Source: a virus. Taken from it: a stretch of 64,000 nt of DNA. Below, one piece after another: positions 6,970 to 62,905 of the stretch. The notes under the pieces were generated by a model. The model had not been told where the DNA came from and searched no databases. It worked only from the letters and a program-made list of their open reading frames with translations. Position 1 is the first letter of the stretch. Every line of letters starts with the position of its first letter. The stretch spans positions 119,529 through 183,528 of the IMG/VR virus record IMGVR_UViG_3300049846_002130, one strand, 5' to 3'. The translations under genes and the position numbers were made by a program.

Positions 6970-8717
6970 TCGTCTTCATCTTTAGCCATATAATCTTTAA
7001 GAGCTACTCGCTGTATTTTATTAGCTACTTTATCAGCCTGAACAGTAGAACTAGTTCTGTAGTAGTACAAGCCTTTAACCCCAGATTTCCAGGCTTTAAG
7101 ATGGACCTTATTAACATAAGCCCTATCTACATTTGCTGGAAAGAATAGATTAACTGACTGACCCTGACATATATAATGTTGTCTGTCAGCAGCATGTTGA
7201 ACTACCCATTCTTGGTTTAGCTCAAAAGCTGTTTTATATATGTGTTTTTCATGCTCATCTAATTCTTGTAAATGTTGTACTGACCCATTACTAAGAATAA
7301 TGGAATTCCATATTTCATCTAATTTGCTACTACTATAACCTTTAGAGATAAGTAGAGCTTCTAGATGCTTGTTCTTAACTAGCCAACTACCCACACGGGT
7401 TCTATGTGTGTAGGCATTAGACTTATTAGGTTCAATACTGGGGCTGGTATTGGCAATGATAGATGTATTGGCGTTAGGCGCTATAGCTAATAGATGTGCA
7501 TTACGTCTGCCTGTACCTATTCCACCTGGATACTCTCCACGTTCTAAAGCTAATTGCTTAGTAGATTTAATAGCTTCCTGTTGAATATGAGAACTCATAT
7601 TATGATTAACTATAGAAGCTATTGCAGACTCCCATGGAATACCATTCTTTTGTAAATAAGAATGAAATCCCATCAGACCTAAGCCTAACGAACGTTCATT
7701 TATAGCTGCTTTAATAGCAGAGCTTAGCTCTACAGGGGCATGGCTAATAAAGATATCTATTACATTATCTAGTAATCTAATAGCATCTTGAACAATTAAT
7801 GTATCTTTCCAATCATCATAGTGTTCCGCAACTAATGAGCTTAAACAACAGACAGCTGTATAATTGTTGTCTGTTGGAAGCTCAATCTCAATGCACAGAT
7901 TTGAACCTCTGATTTTTAGGCCTTGGTCTTTAAGTGTTTGTGGCAATGCTTTATTAGCTGTATCAATAAAGTGTAAATAAGGCTCTCCAGTTCTAGCTCT
8001 GGTTTCTAATATCTTATGCCAAAGCTGACGAGCATTAATTTGTTCTTTAACTTCATTGTTGTGTGGATCAATTAAATTAAACAAGGAATCGTTTTGAACA
8101 CAATGCATAAACTCATCTGTAATATTAATAGCATTGTGTAGATTAAAACACTTTCTGTTTTCGTCACCACCAGTTGGAACTCTTATATTTAAGAACTCAA
8201 CAATATCTGGGTGTGATATATCTAGATATGCAGCATAAGAGCCGCGCCGGCTGCCTTTCTGATGGTAGGCAGTCATATCGGCATCAACTGTTTTTAAGAA
8301 TGGAATGGGCCCTGGCGACTTCTTGCTAACAGCACGAATGTCAGACCAATGGCCTCCGACACCGCCACCCTTAACAGAAAGCCAACGTAGCTCAGAGCTA
8401 TGGCTAATTAAAGAATGGAGATTATCGTCCACATAGGTTAAGTAACAACTAATTGGTAAGCCCTGCCAAGGCTCACCAGGAGCGGGGGCATTACTAAGAA
8501 CGGGAGTAGAGAACATAAGCCAGTTCTTGCTTACATAATCATAAATACGTTGTGCAAATTGTAGATCGCCAGCACAATAGGCAACTGCTGCCCTGGCATA
8601 CGCTTCTTGTGGAGAAGACTCTGTTGGTAGTAAATAATGTTCTTTTAGGAGAGACATACCAAAATCTGTGATAAGACCATCTCTCGATAGATCAATCTCT
8701 ATCCCGTAAACTTTCAT
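6948..8717 (-). CDS. nrdA: ribonucleotide reductase class Ia alpha subunit (no ATP cone)
   Basis: STPVLSN, PISCY, SNLCIE, IAPNAN, GLYYYR, C-terminal CMAC. Confidence 0.95.
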   Translation of the reverse strand: MKVYGIEIDLSRDGLITDFGMSLLKEHYLLPTESSPQEAYARAAVAYCAGDLQFAQRIYDYVSKNWLMFSTPVLSNAPAPGEPWQGLPISCYLTYVDDNLHSLISHSSELRWLSVKGGGVGGHWSDIRAVSKKSPGPIPFLKTVDADMTAYHQKGSRRGSYAAYLDISHPDIVEFLNIRVPTGGDENRKCFNLHNAINITDEFMHCVQNDSLFNLIDPHNNEVKEQINARQLWHKILETRARTGEPYLHFIDTANKALPQTLKDQGLKIRGSNLCIEIELPTDNNYTAVCCLSSLVAEHYDDWKDTLIVQDAIRLLDNVIDIFISHAPVELSSAIKAAINERSLGLGLMGFHSYLQKNGIPWESAIASIVNHNMSSHIQQEAIKSTKQLALERGEYPGGIGTGRRNAHLLAIAPNANTSIIANTSPSIEPNKSNAYTHRTRVGSWLVKNKHLEALLISKGYSSSKLDEIWNSIILSNGSVQHLQELDEHEKHIYKTAFELNQEWVVQHAADRQHYICQGQSVNLFFPANVDRAYVNKVHLKAWKSGVKGLYYYRTSSTVQADKVANKIQRVALKDYMAKDEDECMACHA

Positions 8718-25249: not shown

Positions 25250-26944
25250 ATGACTGGTGCTTTTAAACCTGGGGCTACATCCGGAACAACAGTAAGTGTC
25301 GAAGAACTTCCAGATACCTTAGGCCAGAGTACAATGGCTGGTAGCCTATCAGTTGTTATTGCAAGTGATCAAACTCCAATACCAATCTCTGGAAGTATTA
25401 CAGCTACCAATCCTAGTGTGGGTCTTACGGGTGATCCAGTTCCCACTTCCGCTACTTTTATTGGTGGAGAGAATGAATTTGGAGATCTATACGGTCCTAG
25501 AGTTTTTGATTTAGACTATTTAGGACCTGCTGAGTGGAACTTAGGTGTCAACCTTAGATTTGGTGCAGACGGAGGAAGTGTCGAAGCTGGTACAGCTCTA
25601 GATCCTATTCGTATTGACCCTACCGGAACCACTGCTCAACCTATTACTGATAATGGGGGAAGCCTTACTATAGATAGCTCTCAACTGCCCCCGGTCTTAG
25701 GATCAACAACTTCAGCTAATAGTTTGTCTGTTGTTCTTGCTAGCGATCATGGATTTGTTTTTGTTCATGATGGGGGCGGGTCTTTATCTGTAGATGATGG
25801 TGGGGGCTCCCTAACTGTAGACGGTACAGTTACAGCTAATATAGGTACTGCAGGTGGACTAGCTCTTAATACAACTCTTACTAATGGAACTCAAAAATCT
25901 ATTGTTCGTAGTGGAGATAAAGGTTCATCTGTTTCTGCAGATATAACATCAACCCCTCAAAGTGTTGATCATGAGGCTCTTGATATTCAATTATATCATT
26001 CTGGAACAGCTATAGATCCCACACAAATCAGAGCACTAACAGCTTCAGATATAGTAACTGCAGAGGTTAGTAGCTGGCTTGGAAGTACAGCTCCTACTGT
26101 TGGTCAAAAGTCTATGGCCAATTCAGTTCCAGTTGTTCTAGCTAGTGATCAAAGTACAATTGTAGTTTCTGGAACCGTTACTGCAAGTAACCCAAGTGTT
26201 GGTACTAATAATACTGCTGCCCCAGGTTCCTCTACACAGATAGGTGGGACTGATGGAACTAATCTTCAATCTGCTAGAGTTTTTGATTTGGATTCAGGTG
26301 GCGGAACCCAATATGTTATTGGGGTTGGATTACGCAAAGCAGCTTCAGGTGGTTCTGTTGAAGCAGGAACCTCAACAGATCCTTTAAGGACAGATCCTAC
26401 TGGAACAACTGCTCAACCCGTAACAGATAATGGTAGTTCTATTACTGTAGATGCACCTGTAGGAACCCCTGTAGCTGTTCGTCTTTCTGATGGAGCTGCT
26501 TTCTATGATGGAACGAAGACTGGTCAACTACCAACAGCTCTTGTTGGAGGGCGACTCGACACTAATATCGGAGCTTGGCTAGGCTCTACAACGCCCACAG
26601 TCGGTCAGAAGACTATGACAGATAGTCTTCCTGTTGTATTAGCTAGCAACCAATCTTCTCTTCAGGTAAACTTTCAGTCTTCAAGTAGTAGTGTAAGTAG
26701 TGTTGCTGCTAGTGCAACTAGTGTCACACTACTTGCCTCTAATTCCTCTAGGAAAGGAGCCAGCATTTATAACGATAGTACTAAGAATCTTTACATTAAG
26801 CTAGGATCTACAGCTTCTAGTACAAGCTTTAGTATATTACTTAATAATGGTGGTTATTATGAAGTACCCTTTGGATATACTGGAGTTATAGATGGTATTT
26901 GGAATATTGCATCAGGTAATGCTAGAATTACGGAGTTAACATAA
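25250..26944 (+). CDS. repetitive virion/tail-associated protein
   Basis: internal duplications; C-terminal RKGASIYN...LYIKLG...YYEVPFGYTG domain. Confidence 0.6.
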   Translation: MTGAFKPGATSGTTVSVEELPDTLGQSTMAGSLSVVIASDQTPIPISGSITATNPSVGLTGDPVPTSATFIGGENEFGDLYGPRVFDLDYLGPAEWNLGVNLRFGADGGSVEAGTALDPIRIDPTGTTAQPITDNGGSLTIDSSQLPPVLGSTTSANSLSVVLASDHGFVFVHDGGGSLSVDDGGGSLTVDGTVTANIGTAGGLALNTTLTNGTQKSIVRSGDKGSSVSADITSTPQSVDHEALDIQLYHSGTAIDPTQIRALTASDIVTAEVSSWLGSTAPTVGQKSMANSVPVVLASDQSTIVVSGTVTASNPSVGTNNTAAPGSSTQIGGTDGTNLQSARVFDLDSGGGTQYVIGVGLRKAASGGSVEAGTSTDPLRTDPTGTTAQPVTDNGSSITVDAPVGTPVAVRLSDGAAFYDGTKTGQLPTALVGGRLDTNIGAWLGSTTPTVGQKTMTDSLPVVLASNQSSLQVNFQSSSSSVSSVAASATSVTLLASNSSRKGASIYNDSTKNLYIKLGSTASSTSFSILLNNGGYYEVPFGYTGVIDGIWNIASGNARITELT

Positions 26945-34628: not shown

Positions 34629-34645
34629 TATTTCTCCAATAAAAG

Positions 34646-34735
34646 CGGAAGGCTGAGGACTCGAACCCCATACGGCTTTACCCGTACCCAAGCTTTCAAG
34701 GCTTGTCGCCGCCCATCGCAGCTGCTTAACCTTCC
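34646..34735 (-). tRNA. tRNA-Ser(TGA)
   Basis: GGAAGGT/GCCTTCC, G73, loop CTTGAAA, long variable arm. Confidence 0.85.
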
Positions 34736-34740
34736 AATAT

Positions 34741-34826
34741 TAGACCTAATAGGACTCGAACCCCCGGAAGTTATTAACTTCAGTGCTTTTCAAGAGCACC
34801 ATCTTAAACCACTTGATCACAATCCC
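34741..34826 (-). tRNA. chimeric/pseudo tRNA-Ser(TGA)-like gene with a foreign 3' end
   Basis: D, anticodon and variable arms intact, but acceptor GGGATTG vs TAGGTCT and T-stem GGGGG vs CCTAT pair poorly. Confidence 0.65.
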
Positions 34827-34831
34827 AGTTA

Positions 34832-35209
34832 TTAACAAATATTATCGGGTAATGAAATTATATTAGCATGCAATTTCATGTGACAGTTTGCGCATAAGCA
34901 AATACACTTAGCCAATTCAGCTTTAAGCTTTAAAGCTGAATAGCTTCCCTTGGCATTACCGATATTAAAATCTTTTTCGTTTGGATCTAGATGATGAGCA
35001 ACTAAACAAACGAATTCTTTTTCTGGACAGAGATTGCATCCGTTGGACTTAAAGTCATTAATTATAAGTTTGTTTCGAATAGCATATTTTTCTCTATTTT
35101 TGTTATTACGAATTTTCATTTTTTGATTATATATAGAATCAGTATGATATCTATTATTATAGTATTCTCTATTATATTCTTTCCGCTTTTCTTTATCTTT
35201 ACTAGGCAT
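34832..35209 (-). CDS. HNH endonuclease-like protein
   Basis: CxxC...HHLDP..KDF...ELAKC..LCANCH. Confidence 0.8.
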   Translation of the reverse strand: MPSKDKEKRKEYNREYYNNRYHTDSIYNQKMKIRNNKNREKYAIRNKLIINDFKSNGCNLCPEKEFVCLVAHHLDPNEKDFNIGNAKGSYSALKLKAELAKCICLCANCHMKLHANIISLPDNIC

Positions 35210-35278
35210 AAAAACTCCTAGTAAAGATTGTATAGAAGACTTAATTTTAAGTCAAGAATATCAAACTATAAGTCTAAG

Positions 35279-35352
35279 TGAGAGAGCAGGGATTTGAACC
35301 TTGGACCACTTGCTTAACAGGCACAATGCTCTACCACCTGAGCTATAGGTCT
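35279..35352 (-). tRNA. chimeric/pseudo tRNA-Asn(GTT)-like gene with a foreign 3' end
   Basis: D-arm and loop CTGTTAA present; acceptor AGACCTA vs CTCTCTC does not pair. Confidence 0.65.
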
Positions 35353-35355
35353 ATG

Positions 35356-35429
35356 CGGGCCCTCCTGGACTTGAACCAGGGTATCGCAGCTTAACAGGCT
35401 GCTGCCTTTACCGACTTGGCGAAGGGCCC
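35356..35429 (-). tRNA. tRNA-Asn(GTT)
   Basis: fully paired cloverleaf GGGCCCT/AGGGCCC, G73. Confidence 0.9.
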
Positions 35430-58518: not shown

Positions 58519-58591
58519 TGGATCCGGTGGAAATCGAATCCACCTCAAACGGCTTGCAAGGCTGTTTCGCCCCCTTGGTACATGCGGACCC
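58519..58591 (-). tRNA. tRNA-Cys(GCA), atypical
   Basis: GGGTCCG/CGGATCC, loop CTTGCAA, T-arm GTGGA TTCGATT TCCAC, A73. Confidence 0.75.
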
Positions 58592-59939: not shown

Positions 59940-60671
59940 CTAGAATGAACTACAGTAGGTTCCTTCACTTTGACACCAGAAGTGAGTCCACAAGCGATTG
60001 AATCTAAAGCCATTATTAGTCTTTCGATCAAATAGAACATCCCACTCTCTATTACGATCGGGAGCATAAACTACATTGCCAGTATTCCAATATACACTTC
60101 TGGCTTCCAAATAAGAACCTTCCCAAAGCTGAATGGCACCCCATGCATCTTGAGATACATTATCATAAATAGCTCCATGAATAATGTATAGGTCACTATT
60201 AGTAAGCTCAATAACAGATGTTTCTGGTAAGTAGTTATTAGTGTAGATCGTATCTACAAGTAGTCCTTGACTATCAATTAAAATAGTGGGGTTACTCTGC
60301 CAAGTGACCTCTACATGATTTAACAACAAGTTACTGTCCTGGGCCACAATTTCAGTGTTATAAGCCTTAAGGTTCATTAACTTAAGAGTAGCGTCAGTCA
60401 CTCTAATATAGCCGCTTAAAACAGTATCTGCGTGTCCAGAAATGGTCAAATCATGATCAACTTCAAGATCATAAAATACACCATCACAAAGGACTAGCAT
60501 ATCAGTTTCACTTGCTTGAGACTGAAGATCTCCGTCCCAACAAGTACTGGTAGTAGTATGAATAGTAGGTGTAGTAGAAACTACATTCACTGCTTCATTA
60601 GAGACAGTAGGTTTCTTAGTTACATCAACATCAATTGGAGAATTAGAGCAAGCAATTAACAGCCACATCAT
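59940..60671 (-). CDS. putative lipoprotein with beta-helix-like region
   Basis: MWLLIAC signal; repeating beta/Asn pattern, GGA-like motifs. Confidence 0.6.
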   Translation of the reverse strand: MMWLLIACSNSPIDVDVTKKPTVSNEAVNVVSTTPTIHTTTSTCWDGDLQSQASETDMLVLCDGVFYDLEVDHDLTISGHADTVLSGYIRVTDATLKLMNLKAYNTEIVAQDSNLLLNHVEVTWQSNPTILIDSQGLLVDTIYTNNYLPETSVIELTNSDLYIIHGAIYDNVSQDAWGAIQLWEGSYLEARSVYWNTGNVVYAPDRNREWDVLFDRKTNNGFRFNRLWTHFWCQSEGTYCSSF

Positions 60672-60685
60672 AACCTCCTATTAAA

Positions 60686-60717
60686 TGGTGGGCACGGAGA
60701 GATTCTAACCCCTAACC
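60686..60717 (-). pseudogene. isolated tRNA 3' fragment (T-arm, acceptor strand, ACCA)
   Basis: GGTT AGGGG TTAGAAT CTCTC CGTGCCC A CCA. Confidence 0.6.
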
Positions 60718-60762
60718 ATACAAGTAGTTGAAAATAACTAATTAATTAAGTTAGAATTAGAG

Positions 60763-60836
60763 TGAGAACGACAGGACTCGAACCTGTATAATCCACTTAC
60801 GGTACTTTGATTAGAAGGCAAAGCCGATACGTTCCC
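60763..60836 (-). tRNA. D-armless tRNA-Arg(TCT)-like RNA
   Basis: GGGAACG/CGTTCTC, loop CTTCTAA, T-arm ACAGG TTCGAGT CCTGT; only TATCGG in place of the D-arm. Confidence 0.6.
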
Positions 60837-60845
60837 AGGAGTCTT

Positions 60846-61463
60846 ATGAATTGTTTAAACTGTAATAAGGAAACAACAAATCCTAAATATTGTAGCAAAT
60901 CTTGTTCTGCTAAGATAAACGGAAAGCTATTTCCTAAACGCAAACTTAAAAACTTATGTAGTCGTTGTAAGAATATTAGAGATACTTATACCTCATCCCT
61001 ATGTAAGAGTTGTAGAGCTCAAGGTATTCATATTGGAAATCCAAAAGGAAATTCTAATATTTCTATTGAGCGGCTGAAAAGTATTTCGGTTAATGAAACA
61101 ACTAAAAAATGCCCAAGCTGTAAAGAAATATTGCCGCTTATGCAATTTTATATTCGTCGAGGATTTCGAACTCATTCTTACTGCCGAACATGTGTTTTAA
61201 AACAAACTTCAGATCGGCAAAAGAACTTTAAACTAATGTGCGTTGAATACAAAGGTGGGAAATGTATTTTTTGTGGATATAATCGATGTGTCCAAGCTAT
61301 GGACTTTCATCATTTAGATCCATCTCAAAAAGATTTCGCAGTTTCACAAAGAAAGTCTTTAGCATTTACAGATGTAGTAAGAGCTGAACTAGATAAATGT
61401 GCTTTACTATGTGCTACTTGTCATCGAGAAGTACATGCGGGAGTAATAACTCTTATGCCTTAG
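60846..61463 (+). CDS. HNH endonuclease with N-terminal Zn-finger repeats
   Basis: CxxC repeats; KGGKC..CGY...DFHHLDP..KDF...ELDKC.LLCATCHREVH; start reset to ATG 60846. Confidence 0.85.
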   Translation: MNCLNCNKETTNPKYCSKSCSAKINGKLFPKRKLKNLCSRCKNIRDTYTSSLCKSCRAQGIHIGNPKGNSNISIERLKSISVNETTKKCPSCKEILPLMQFYIRRGFRTHSYCRTCVLKQTSDRQKNFKLMCVEYKGGKCIFCGYNRCVQAMDFHHLDPSQKDFAVSQRKSLAFTDVVRAELDKCALLCATCHREVHAGVITLMP

Positions 61464-61474
61464 GCTACGCGCCC
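61456..61474 (-). pseudogene. isolated tRNA 5' fragment (GGGCGCG TA GCCTAAGGCA)
   Basis: acceptor strand complementary to the fragment at 60686. Confidence 0.55.
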
Positions 61475-61603
61475 TAAAAAGATGGTGTATCTTTATCTTC
61501 TGGATTTATTGGTTTCTTAGGTTGTTCTAGGCTCCACTTCAAAAGTATATAAACCATACAACCTAATAATAAGATAGCTCCTGTAAAAAAATCCATATAG
61601 TAC

Positions 61604-61963
61604 CTAATTAAAAGTAGATTCAACTGCCGTCATTAGTTCTTTAACATTATCAGAACTACCAATAACCTGAAGTTTATTGTTCTTCCAGATCTTAGCTGTC
61701 CAGATAGACTCATTTTTCCATACTAGTCCCATTAGCTCATGACTACCTGCCATGCCATAGGACCAATAGTATTCTGCATGTCTAGTCCAACTAGGAATTG
61801 GTTTGGTAACTGTAACCGGCTTAATAGCTACAAGTGCTTTATTAGCACAAGAAACTGCTGTTACTACCACTACAATATTTGAAATGGTGAACAGAATCAC
61901 GTACAAAAGTACAAATAAATTTAAGTAAGTAAAGGTATTAATAAATGAACTTAAATTACTCAT
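61604..61963 (-). CDS. membrane-anchored hypothetical protein
   Basis: N-terminal TM. Confidence 0.55.
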   Translation of the reverse strand: MSNLSSFINTFTYLNLFVLLYVILFTISNIVVVVTAVSCANKALVAIKPVTVTKPIPSWTRHAEYYWSYGMAGSHELMGLVWKNESIWTAKIWKNNKLQVIGSSDNVKELMTAVESTFN

Positions 61964-62558: not shown

Positions 62559-62881
62559 TGGGCCGTATAGGATTCGAACCTATGACCTCGGGCTTAACGT
62601 CACTGCACTTAGTTTCCTAAGCTACCTTAAAGGCTTGCAGTGCTGGACTATATCATCACCTTCACCTTAAGTGGTCAGGTGCTGTACGTGTAGTCTCTGA
62701 GGACTCTCTGCTAATGCAGGTTGCCTGCTGATTGTCCAATCCATTAAATTTTTACGTTTAGGCACGTATTAATGGCTCTAAGGAGTTTCCAGCATATAGT
62801 ACAGTTCATTTACTATATTTCTATAGTAACGCTCTTATTACACGTTTAAGGCCCTCGCTCTACCAACTGAGCTAACAGCCC
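62559..62881 (-). tRNA. tRNA-Lys(TTT) interrupted by a group I intron
   Basis: exon 1 62881-62848 and exon 2 62597-62559 join into a cloverleaf with loop CTT|TTAA. Confidence 0.85.
62598..62847 (-). mobile_element. group I self-splicing intron (250 nt, no ORF)
   Basis: P TGCTGGAAACTCC, Q AATCAGCAG, R TCAGAGACTAC, S GATATAGTCC, terminal G. Confidence 0.9.
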
Positions 62882-62905
62882 CTAACTACCCTCTCACCGG
62901 TCCCG

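What the first reader, a model, noticed from the sequence alone, without database searches (positions are those of the whole stretch)
60686..61474. Second split-tRNA/HNH locus, enclosing a D-armless tRNA-Arg-like RNA
Seen: a 5' tRNA fragment GGGCGCG-TA-GCC (61474) and a 3' fragment ending CGTGCCC-ACCA (60686) pair 7/7 across about 790 nt. Between them lie an antisense HNH gene, whose stop codon falls inside the 5' fragment, and a 74-nt RNA with good acceptor, TCT anticodon and T arms but no D-arm. A D-loop-like AGTGGAT sits after the anticodon arm instead. This HNH shares the HHLDP..KDF...EL.KC..LCA.CH motif with the one at 34832. Inference: this HNH family repeatedly invades tRNA genes and brings a replacement tRNA-like module, a possible tRNA-targeting mobile element type.
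Basis: partly seen in the sequence, partly recalled or inferred. Interest (0 to 1): 0.75.

Follow-up and report, generated by a model that had tools for sequence, protein, structure and literature searches.

The report
Nuclease cassette with rewired arginine tRNA
A selfish DNA-cutting-enzyme gene sits inside the wreck of one of this phage's tRNA genes, next to a working-looking arginine tRNA whose core is wired differently from the textbook cloverleaf; this design turns out to be common in phages but is mostly unannotated.

Summary
The 74-nt RNA (60763-60836, minus strand) is not debris. It belongs to a large, almost purely phage-borne class of non-cloverleaf arginine tRNAs. I collected 103 distinct IMG/VR copies, and a Felix O1-type copy matches 263 GenBank phage records. 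A 3-bp helix encloses the anticodon arm and replaces the D stem, and a D-loop-like UAA-N-UGGA segment follows. Covariation strongly supports all four helices. It is the phage's only tRNA-Arg, and AGA is 40% of its Arg codons.

The 205-aa HNH gene (60846-61463, plus strand) is intact. Its relatives lie in phage tRNA clusters. Its N-terminal zinc ribbon is shared with an enzyme encoded antisense in a group I intron of a canonical tRNA-Arg(UCU) gene.

The outer fragments are most likely the decayed halves of a resident tRNA gene, split between positions 26 and 27, not a working split gene. Seven-base complementarity alone is common. However, the 5' relic is 19 nt long and carries both D-stem strands. 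At least four other phage contigs show the same nesting with better-kept halves.

That enzyme and spare tRNA move together is inferred, not shown. Earlier reports of this scan reached the same reading on other genomes; I found no published description.

The parts
61456..61474 (-). 5' relic of the outer (resident) tRNA gene: acceptor 5' strand, U8 A9, both D-stem strands around a 1-nt loop, and A26
   Evidence: Read directly from the sequence. It is identical to the intact metagenomic tRNA in L272 except for a 7-nt D-loop deletion. The HNH stop codon (61461-61463) lies inside it.
60846..61463 (+). Intact free-standing HNH homing-endonuclease gene (205 aa), antisense to the tRNA strand. It has an N-terminal Cys-rich zinc-ribbon module and a C-terminal HNH core
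   Evidence: ORF. It matches phrog_2255 at E 2.3e-32. There are 935 homologues at E<=1e-10. The conserved Cys and His columns are kept. The N-terminus is 59% identical to the intron-encoded enzyme of L005.
60763..60836 (-). Rewired (non-cloverleaf) tRNA-Arg(UCU), 74 nt. In order: acceptor stem, UA, a 3-bp helix that encloses the anticodon arm, a D-loop-like UAAGUGGA segment, T arm, and discriminator A (no encoded CCA)
   Evidence: Rfam tRNA 30.4 bits. Class model R1 gives 73 bits, though this copy was in the training set. The closest relatives are L128, L176 and L192.
60730..60762 (-). AT-rich spacer between the rewired tRNA and the 3' relic. A weak promoter-like site on the plus strand (60728-60757) points toward the HNH gene
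   Evidence: The promoter-like match is 10/12, but the count of such sites is not above shuffles, so it carries little weight.
60686..60729 (-). 3' relic of the outer tRNA gene: an anticodon-arm-like hairpin (5 bp, 6-nt loop), no variable loop, a weak T arm with a degenerate loop, the acceptor 3' strand, and A-CCA
   Evidence: Joined to the 5' relic it is 53/78 identical to the L272 tRNA. Neither Rfam tRNA, R1 nor ARAGORN detects it.

Best explanation
The locus is a homing-endonuclease cassette lodged in a dead tRNA gene.

1. Outer gene. A resident tRNA gene on the minus strand was split between its D arm and its anticodon stem (positions 26/27). Its two ends have since decayed.
2. HNH gene. 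The insert carries an intact HNH nuclease gene, antisense to the tRNAs. Its zinc-ribbon N-terminus is of the type that elsewhere serves enzymes targeting tRNA-Arg genes.
3. Rewired tRNA. Ten bases from the nuclease start codon, and diverging from it, lies a rewired tRNA-Arg(UCU). In this tRNA the strand after U8-A9 pairs with a strand that lies after the anticodon arm. This 3-bp helix takes the place of the D stem and stacks on the anticodon stem. The D-loop nucleotides, including the GG that docks on the T loop and the A that corresponds to the ArgRS identity base A20, follow that helix and run straight into the T arm.

Shown here: the RNA class is real and conserved, and it is almost restricted to phages and to arginine anticodons. 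The nesting of nuclease plus rewired tRNA inside another tRNA gene recurs.

Inferred: the rewired tRNA is charged with arginine and reads AGA, this phage's commonest Arg codon. The nuclease cuts intact tRNA genes in rival genomes, and repair copies the nuclease and the adjacent tRNA into the break. The outer halves have no function.
For: The RNA class is real:
- A motif scan that required only the three loops returned 106 distinct IMG/VR sequences. Of these, 103 have 6-7 of 7 acceptor pairs at a fixed offset.
- On alignment A1, 96.7% of cells are paired. The covariation score is 0.908, against 0.22 in shuffles and at most 0.17 when partners are slid. All three pairs of the new helix change on both sides; pair 12-42 reads GC 45, UA 31, CG 14, AU 13 with none unpaired.
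- RNAalifold recovers the same helix unaided.
- Invariant positions include U8 A9, the CUUCUAA loop, UAA-N-UGGA and GUUCGA.
- Other members carry CCU or ACG anticodons, which are also arginine.

It is phage-borne:
- 263 GenBank phage records match, mostly unannotated.
- Only 18 genuine copies occur in 185,579 prokaryote species genomes.

The phage has use for it:
- It has no other tRNA-Arg.
- AGA is 40% of its Arg codons.

The nuclease:
- It matches phrog_2255 and looks intact.
- Relatives lie in the tRNA clusters of Felix O1, a T5-like phage, fHe-Yen9-04 and VS1.
- Of the 6 closest full-length homologues, 4 lie antisense in tRNA clusters and 2 diverge from a tRNA-Arg(UCU).
- L005 encodes a homologue with the same N-terminal zinc-ribbon module but a different HNH core, antisense in a group I intron in the anticodon loop of a canonical tRNA-Arg.
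- 34 of 136 rewired copies have an HNH gene within 600 nt.

The nesting recurs:
- L187, L155, L183 and L268 have complementary outer acceptor halves around nuclease plus rewired tRNA.
- L211 and L132 have a 5'-truncated canonical tRNA-Arg directly after the rewired gene.

This locus:
- The 5' relic is 19 nt with both D-stem strands.
- The composite relic is 53/78 identical to an intact tRNA with the same termini.
Against: - No RNA or biochemical data exist. Expression, processing and charging of the rewired tRNA, and cleavage by the nuclease, are all untested.
- The window copy has a C-U mismatch at the last pair of the anticodon stem, where its nearest relative L128 has A-U.
- The outer 3' relic is too decayed for any tRNA model to detect.
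- Seven-base complementarity of this kind occurs about 37 times per shuffled genome.
- This phage has no close relatives. The flanking gene finds only itself, so no empty-site allele could be compared.
- Three quarters of rewired tRNA genes have no nuclease nearby, so the tRNA need not be cargo.
- The outer relic here looks Val/Thr-like, not Arg, which weakens a strict 'replacement' reading at this locus.
Confidence: 0.7

Rival explanations
1. An ordinary free-standing homing endonuclease simply sits beside a tRNA gene in a phage tRNA cluster, as in T4 SegB or the Felix O1 and T5 enzymes. The outer 'fragments' are chance complementarity, and no gene was split.
For: - Complementary 7-mers with the same flanks occur 69 times in this genome and about 37 times in shuffles.
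- No tRNA model detects the 3' fragment.
- In L139, L164, L131 and L223 the same divergent nuclease/tRNA pair has no visible outer halves.
Against: - Only about 3e-4 such pairs are expected in the short flanks of the cassette.
- The 5' piece continues into a perfect 4-bp D stem and matches a real tRNA over 19 nt.
- The 3' piece has T-arm-like and anticodon-arm-like hairpins at the right spacing.
- The same nesting has well-kept halves in L187, L155, L183 and L268.
Confidence: 0.2
2. The outer pieces are the two exons of a working split tRNA. The roughly 790 nt between them is removed, by self-splicing or by RNase P/Z cuts around the inner tRNA followed by a phage RNA ligase.
For: - The acceptor strands pair 7/7.
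- The same enzyme family does live in a true group I intron of a tRNA-Arg gene in L005.
- This phage has a group I intron in another tRNA (62624-62851).
- An earlier, unchecked note says the phage encodes an RNA ligase.
Against: - No group I intron signal appears in this locus even at E<=10, nor in the nested loci L187, L183 and L145.
- The joined pieces would have a 1-nt D loop, a 6-nt anticodon loop, no variable loop and a T loop without C56. ARAGORN rejects them at any threshold.
- Most outer halves in other loci have lost their anticodon-stem complementarity.
Confidence: 0.03
3. The 74-nt RNA is a tRNA-Arg pseudogene that lost its D arm through damage by the neighbouring nuclease.
For: - ARAGORN does not call it.
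- Its Rfam score is just above threshold.
- One anticodon-stem pair is mismatched.
Against: - The same architecture occurs in over 100 distinct sequences, with compensatory changes in every helix and invariant loop nucleotides.
- Most copies have no nuclease nearby.
- It is the only tRNA-Arg in a phage that prefers AGA.
Confidence: 0.03

Closest known systems
Phage T4 SegB, and the T5 F-Tfl enzymes: free-standing homing endonucleases in phage tRNA gene clusters (PMC2330249)
   Same: - A small nuclease gene lies between tRNA genes of a lytic phage. In T4 it sits next to tRNA-Arg.
- SegB recognises a conserved tRNA motif in the DNA and drives inheritance of its own tRNA region.
   Different: - SegB is GIY-YIG, not HNH.
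- SegB lies between intact genes.
- Here the enzyme lies inside a broken tRNA gene, next to a non-cloverleaf tRNA.
- Cleavage by this enzyme has not been tested.
Group I intron-encoded homing endonucleases in tRNA anticodon loops (example found here: L005; Rfam RF00028)
   Same: The N-terminal zinc-ribbon module and the antisense orientation are shared with the L005 enzyme, whose HNH core is a different variant. The mobile element occupies a tRNA gene.
   Different: There is no intron RNA at this locus. Function is not restored by splicing; at most, a second tRNA gene compensates.
Metazoan mitochondrial D-armless tRNAs, e.g. mt-tRNA-Ser (PMC7609411)
   Same: The tRNA lacks a conventional D arm but keeps the acceptor, anticodon and T arms.
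   Different: - In mitochondria the D arm is replaced by a short loop 5' of the anticodon arm, and the T-loop/D-loop contacts are lost.
- Here a new helix encloses the anticodon arm.
- Here the D-loop nucleotides (GG, A20-like) are kept but moved to the 3' side.
- The hosts here are bacteriophages.
Canonical bacterial and phage tRNA-Arg(UCU), e.g. E. coli argU
   Same: The anticodon loop and T loop are the same. The nucleotides that serve as ArgRS identity elements (A20-like, C35, U36, purine discriminator in most copies) are present. The codon served is the same.
   Different: The connectivity of the core differs. Standard finders miss it or label it 'OTHER' or 'TERM'.

Membership tests
tRNA (Rfam RF00005) | 7-bp acceptor stem, 5-bp anticodon stem with a 7-nt loop, and a T arm with a GTTCRA loop | tested here: met
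   The acceptor stem pairs 7/7 and the T arm is canonical. The anticodon stem has 4 pairs plus one C-U mismatch.
tRNA (Rfam RF00005) | A D arm between position 9 and the anticodon stem | tested here: not met
   the 15 model positions of the D arm are replaced by 4 nt, and 15 nt are inserted in the variable region.
tRNA (Rfam RF00005) | Score at or above the gathering threshold (29 bits) | tested here: inconclusive
   It scores 30.4 bits in a region-limited search but is not reported in the whole-window gathering search.
Rewired phage tRNA-Arg class (model R1, built here) | A 3-bp helix between positions 11-13 and the strand after the anticodon arm, followed by UAA-N-UGGA, then AUG and the T arm | tested here: met
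   The window copy scores 73 bits, but it was in the training set. The near relatives L128, L176 and L192 share its 74-75-nt form.
Rewired phage tRNA-Arg class (model R1, built here) | Aminoacylation with arginine and use on the ribosome | not testable with these tools
   Only indirect support: the identity-type nucleotides are invariant, and the anticodons are restricted to UCU, CCU and ACG, with one exception.
HNH homing endonuclease (phrog_2255) | HNH core with the conserved His and Cys residues | tested here: met
   E 2.3e-32; invariant Cys and His columns. Pfam PF01844 itself is not hit at E<=0.1, although some homologues carry it.
HNH homing endonuclease (phrog_2255) | Site-specific DNA cleavage and homing; presence/absence polymorphism among close relatives | tested here: inconclusive
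   Presence/absence next to the same tRNA gene is seen among Felix O1-like phages. No close relative of this phage exists to test it here. Cleavage cannot be tested.
Group I intron | Match to the catalytic core (RF00028) | tested here: not met
   There is no match at E<=10 in 60500-61700. Positive controls: 62624-62851 in this window and L005.
Functional split tRNA | Two halves that together give a complete cloverleaf with intact loops | tested here: not met
   the composite has a 1-nt D loop, a 6-nt anticodon loop and no variable loop. ARAGORN does not call it at any threshold.

The most novel reading that the evidence does not exclude
The cassette may be a natural 'cleave and rescue' drive. 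Under this reading:
- The nuclease recognises conserved tRNA motifs at a fixed spacing in canonical tRNA genes, cuts them, and is copied in together with the adjacent tRNA.
- The rewired order of parts (anticodon arm placed before the D-loop segment) is what makes the carried tRNA gene uncuttable, while it keeps every nucleotide that ArgRS and the ribosome need.
- The non-cloverleaf architecture would then have evolved as immunity to homing endonucleases, or to host tRNA-directed nucleases.
Probability: 0.3. Interest if true: 0.9.

Novelty: new variant of a known kind. Interest (0 to 1): 0.78.

Why it matters
- If the rewired RNA is a working tRNA, the cloverleaf connectivity taught as universal outside mitochondria has a widespread exception in phages, including well-studied ones such as Felix O1.
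- Standard annotation misses a tRNA for a codon that matters to phage translation.
- It would give structural biologists a natural test of which tRNA features ArgRS, RNase P, EF-Tu and the ribosome really need.
- The nesting suggests a third way for homing endonucleases to occupy a conserved gene, besides introns and inteins: break the gene and supply a spare.
- For this genome, it explains two puzzling tRNA fragments as a scar and identifies the phage's only arginine tRNA.

Tried and rejected
- Searched for relatives of the flanking 243-aa gene. None in IMG/VR, and only itself among 5.8 billion proteins. No empty-site comparison was therefore possible for this phage.
- Looked at the flanking 207-aa gene. 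It gave one distant locus, L009, without tRNAs, which was not informative.
- Scanned IMG/VR for an intact tRNA with the outer termini: none. The metagenome scan gave one real tRNA, L272, and five chance matches.
- Ran ARAGORN in intron mode on the window. It joined the outer 5' piece to the inner tRNA's 3' end as 'tRNA-Asn(att)' with a mismatched acceptor stem. I rejected this as an artefact.
- Folded the 74-nt RNA as a single sequence. This gave a non-tRNA fold, z = -2.1, which the family covariation supersedes.
- Considered a long variable-arm hairpin as an alternative to the enclosing helix. L018, L031 and others do not support it, while the enclosing helix covaries.
- Searched the L155 nested locus against GenBank phages for a filled/empty pair. 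Only the rewired tRNA matched.
- Searched solved structures with the HNH sequence: nothing significant.
- Ran seven literature searches and read one review of non-canonical tRNAs. None describes a D-armless or rewired tRNA in phages. Absence from the held library is not proof that it is unpublished.

Full report
**Context.** The window is the last 64 kb of a complete 183,528-bp IMG/VR phage genome with direct terminal repeats. It has 36% G+C. Eleven tRNA genes are called by ARAGORN, ten of them on the minus strand of this window, and none is for arginine. The locus is 100% identical in three further contigs from other samples, so it is not a misassembly.

**Observation.**
- The HNH ORF runs 60846-61463 on the plus strand, antisense to the tRNAs.
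- Its stop codon lies within the tRNA-like 5' fragment that starts at 61474 on the minus strand.
- The 74-nt RNA at 60763-60836 begins 10 nt from the HNH start codon and diverges from it.
- The 3' fragment ends with A-CCA at 60686, just before the ribosome-binding site of the next gene.
- Rfam's tRNA model aligns the 74-nt RNA at 30.4 bits, with the D arm deleted and 15 nt inserted before the T arm.

**The inner RNA belongs to a large conserved class.**
- A blastn search with it found a 76%-identical stretch next to an HNH gene in Felix O1-like coliphages. In phage bumzen this is the same kind of RNA, with different stems but the same loops.
- A Felix-type copy matches 263 GenBank phage records. 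These include Felixounavirus, rV5-like, T5-like and jumbo phages, and single Streptomyces and Vibrio phages. Nearly all copies are unannotated; a few are labelled 'tRNA-OTHER', 'tRNA-TERM' or plain 'tRNA'.
Of these, 103 have 6-7 of 7 acceptor pairs at one fixed offset.
- On the 103-sequence alignment, 96.7% of cells form standard pairs. The covariation score is 0.908, against 0.22 for shuffles and at most 0.17 for slid partners.
- The acceptor stem was used to select the sequences. The other three helices were not.

**The new helix and the identity nucleotides.**
- The new helix pairs positions 11-13 with three bases that lie after the anticodon arm. All three pairs change on both sides; the middle pair shows four pair types and is never unpaired.
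- RNAalifold finds the same helix on its own.
- Invariant nucleotides are U8 A9, the CUUCUAA loop, a UAA-N-UGGA segment, an AUG just before the T stem, and GUUCGA.
- From established tRNA knowledge, the GG matches G18 G19, which dock on the T loop. The A after it matches A20, the main ArgRS identity base in E. coli. The A and U flanking the segment could form the 15-48 pair. This mapping is inference.
- Further members found with the model carry CCU or ACG anticodons, which are also arginine. One carries GAU.
- Only 18 genuine copies occur in one genome each of 185,579 prokaryote species, mostly on MAG contigs. The class is therefore essentially phage-borne.
- In this phage AGA is 40% of arginine codons, and there is no other tRNA-Arg.
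- The window copy has one C-U mismatch at the loop-proximal pair of the anticodon stem, where its nearest relative L128 has A-U.

**The nuclease.**
- The protein matches PHROG 2255, 'HNH endonuclease', and keeps the conserved Cys and His columns.
- It has 935 homologues at E<=1e-10 and matches in 468 GenBank phage records.
- Relatives sit tightly between tRNA genes in Felix O1, a T5-like vibriophage, Yersinia phage fHe-Yen9-04 and Vibrio phage VS1. Their ends often overlap a tRNA.
- The genome has three paralogues, and all three lie next to tRNA genes.
- Of the six closest full-length homologues, four lie antisense within tRNA clusters. Two diverge from a tRNA-Arg(UCU), one canonical (L266) and one rewired (L268).
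- A homologue with the same N-terminal zinc-ribbon module but a different HNH core is encoded antisense inside a bona fide group I intron. That intron interrupts the anticodon loop of a canonical tRNA-Arg gene in L005.
- Of 136 rewired tRNA copies, 34 have an HNH gene within 600 nt. These belong to several HNH types and occur in both orientations. The divergent arrangement seen here recurs in at least nine distinct loci.

**The outer fragments.**
- Taken alone, a 7-mer followed by UAG and its complement followed by NCCA within 1.5 kb is common: 69 in this genome, 36.6 in shuffles. The expectation for the short flanks of the cassette is about 3e-4.
- L187 has a clean outer cloverleaf split by a 655-nt insert made of an antisense HNH gene plus a rewired tRNA-Arg.
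- L155 has the 5' half of an argU-like tRNA-Arg, a sense-oriented HNH gene of another type, the rewired tRNA, and then the matching T arm and acceptor strand.
- L183 and L268 show the same pattern.
- L211 and L132 have a 5'-truncated canonical tRNA-Arg(UCU) directly after the rewired gene.
- None of L187, L183 or L145 has a group I intron, and neither does this locus.
- A metagenome scan found one intact tRNA (L272, Val-UAC) with the same termini.
- Against L272, the window's 5' relic is identical over 19 nt apart from a 7-nt D-loop deletion. It therefore contains both D-stem strands and A26.
- The 3' relic (60729-60686) has an anticodon-arm-like hairpin with a 6-nt loop, no variable loop, a weak T arm and the acceptor strand.
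- The composite is 53/78 identical to L272, but ARAGORN does not call it a tRNA at any threshold.
- I read this as a decayed pseudogene split at 26/27, not as a working split gene.

**Mechanism.**
- Shown: the class, its structure, its distribution, the nuclease family's link to tRNA genes, and the recurrent nesting.
- Inferred: the nuclease cuts intact tRNA genes, and repair copies it in with the neighbouring rewired tRNA. That tRNA supplies arginine decoding, and the broken gene decays.
- Because three quarters of rewired genes have no nuclease nearby, the tRNA may be a long-standing phage gene that nucleases exploit, rather than obligate cargo.
- Whether the rewired order of parts confers immunity to the nuclease is an open and attractive hypothesis.

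**Prior knowledge.** The closest published system I could read is T4 SegB (PMC2330249). A 2020 review of non-canonical tRNAs does not mention phages, and seven library searches found no description. Earlier reports of this scan on other genomes reached the same two conclusions. I saw those notes only after my own analysis.

Noticed in passing
window 62560-62890 (-): A tRNA gene is interrupted in its anticodon loop by a group I intron (RF00028, 67.9 bits, 62624-62851). ARAGORN does not call it, and the intron has no ORF.
   Followed up: partly
window 58519-58591 (-): A further tRNA-like sequence lies directly after tRNA-Glu. It has a 7-bp acceptor stem and a T arm and scores 18.5 bits with model R1. 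ARAGORN does not call it, and Rfam does not report it at gathering threshold.
   Followed up: no
window 34645-35429 (-): The first HNH locus holds a 125-aa paralogue in sense orientation, between two low-scoring tRNA-like genes (Rfam 29-30 bits). Each of these lies next to an intact tRNA with the same anticodon. Neither tRNA-like gene is of the rewired class (R1 at most 13 bits).
   Followed up: partly
G000:C1:7940-8580 (outside the window): A third HNH paralogue (plus strand, starting near 8095) diverges from an ordinary tRNA-Leu(UAA) on the minus strand, 71 nt away.
   Followed up: partly
L006 2395-2473 (NC_005282.1 25951-26029): In the Felix O1 RefSeq record the rewired tRNA-Arg is not annotated. 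The annotated start of the HNH ORF45 CDS (26003-26395) overlaps it.
   Followed up: partly
L191 1178-1539; L031 1230-1386: There are tandem arrays of rewired arginine tRNAs with different anticodons: UCU, CCU and ACG in L191, and UCU plus CCU in L031.
   Followed up: partly
L268 1417-1493 (-): One rewired copy has a GAU (Ile-type) anticodon loop. The split outer tRNA around it has the same loop sequence, which suggests an anticodon switch within the class.
   Followed up: no
window 55899 and 55715 (-): A second acceptor-like 7-mer plus UAG lies about 120 nt upstream of tRNA-Thr and is complementary to that tRNA's 3' acceptor strand. It may be another 5' relic or chance.
   Followed up: no
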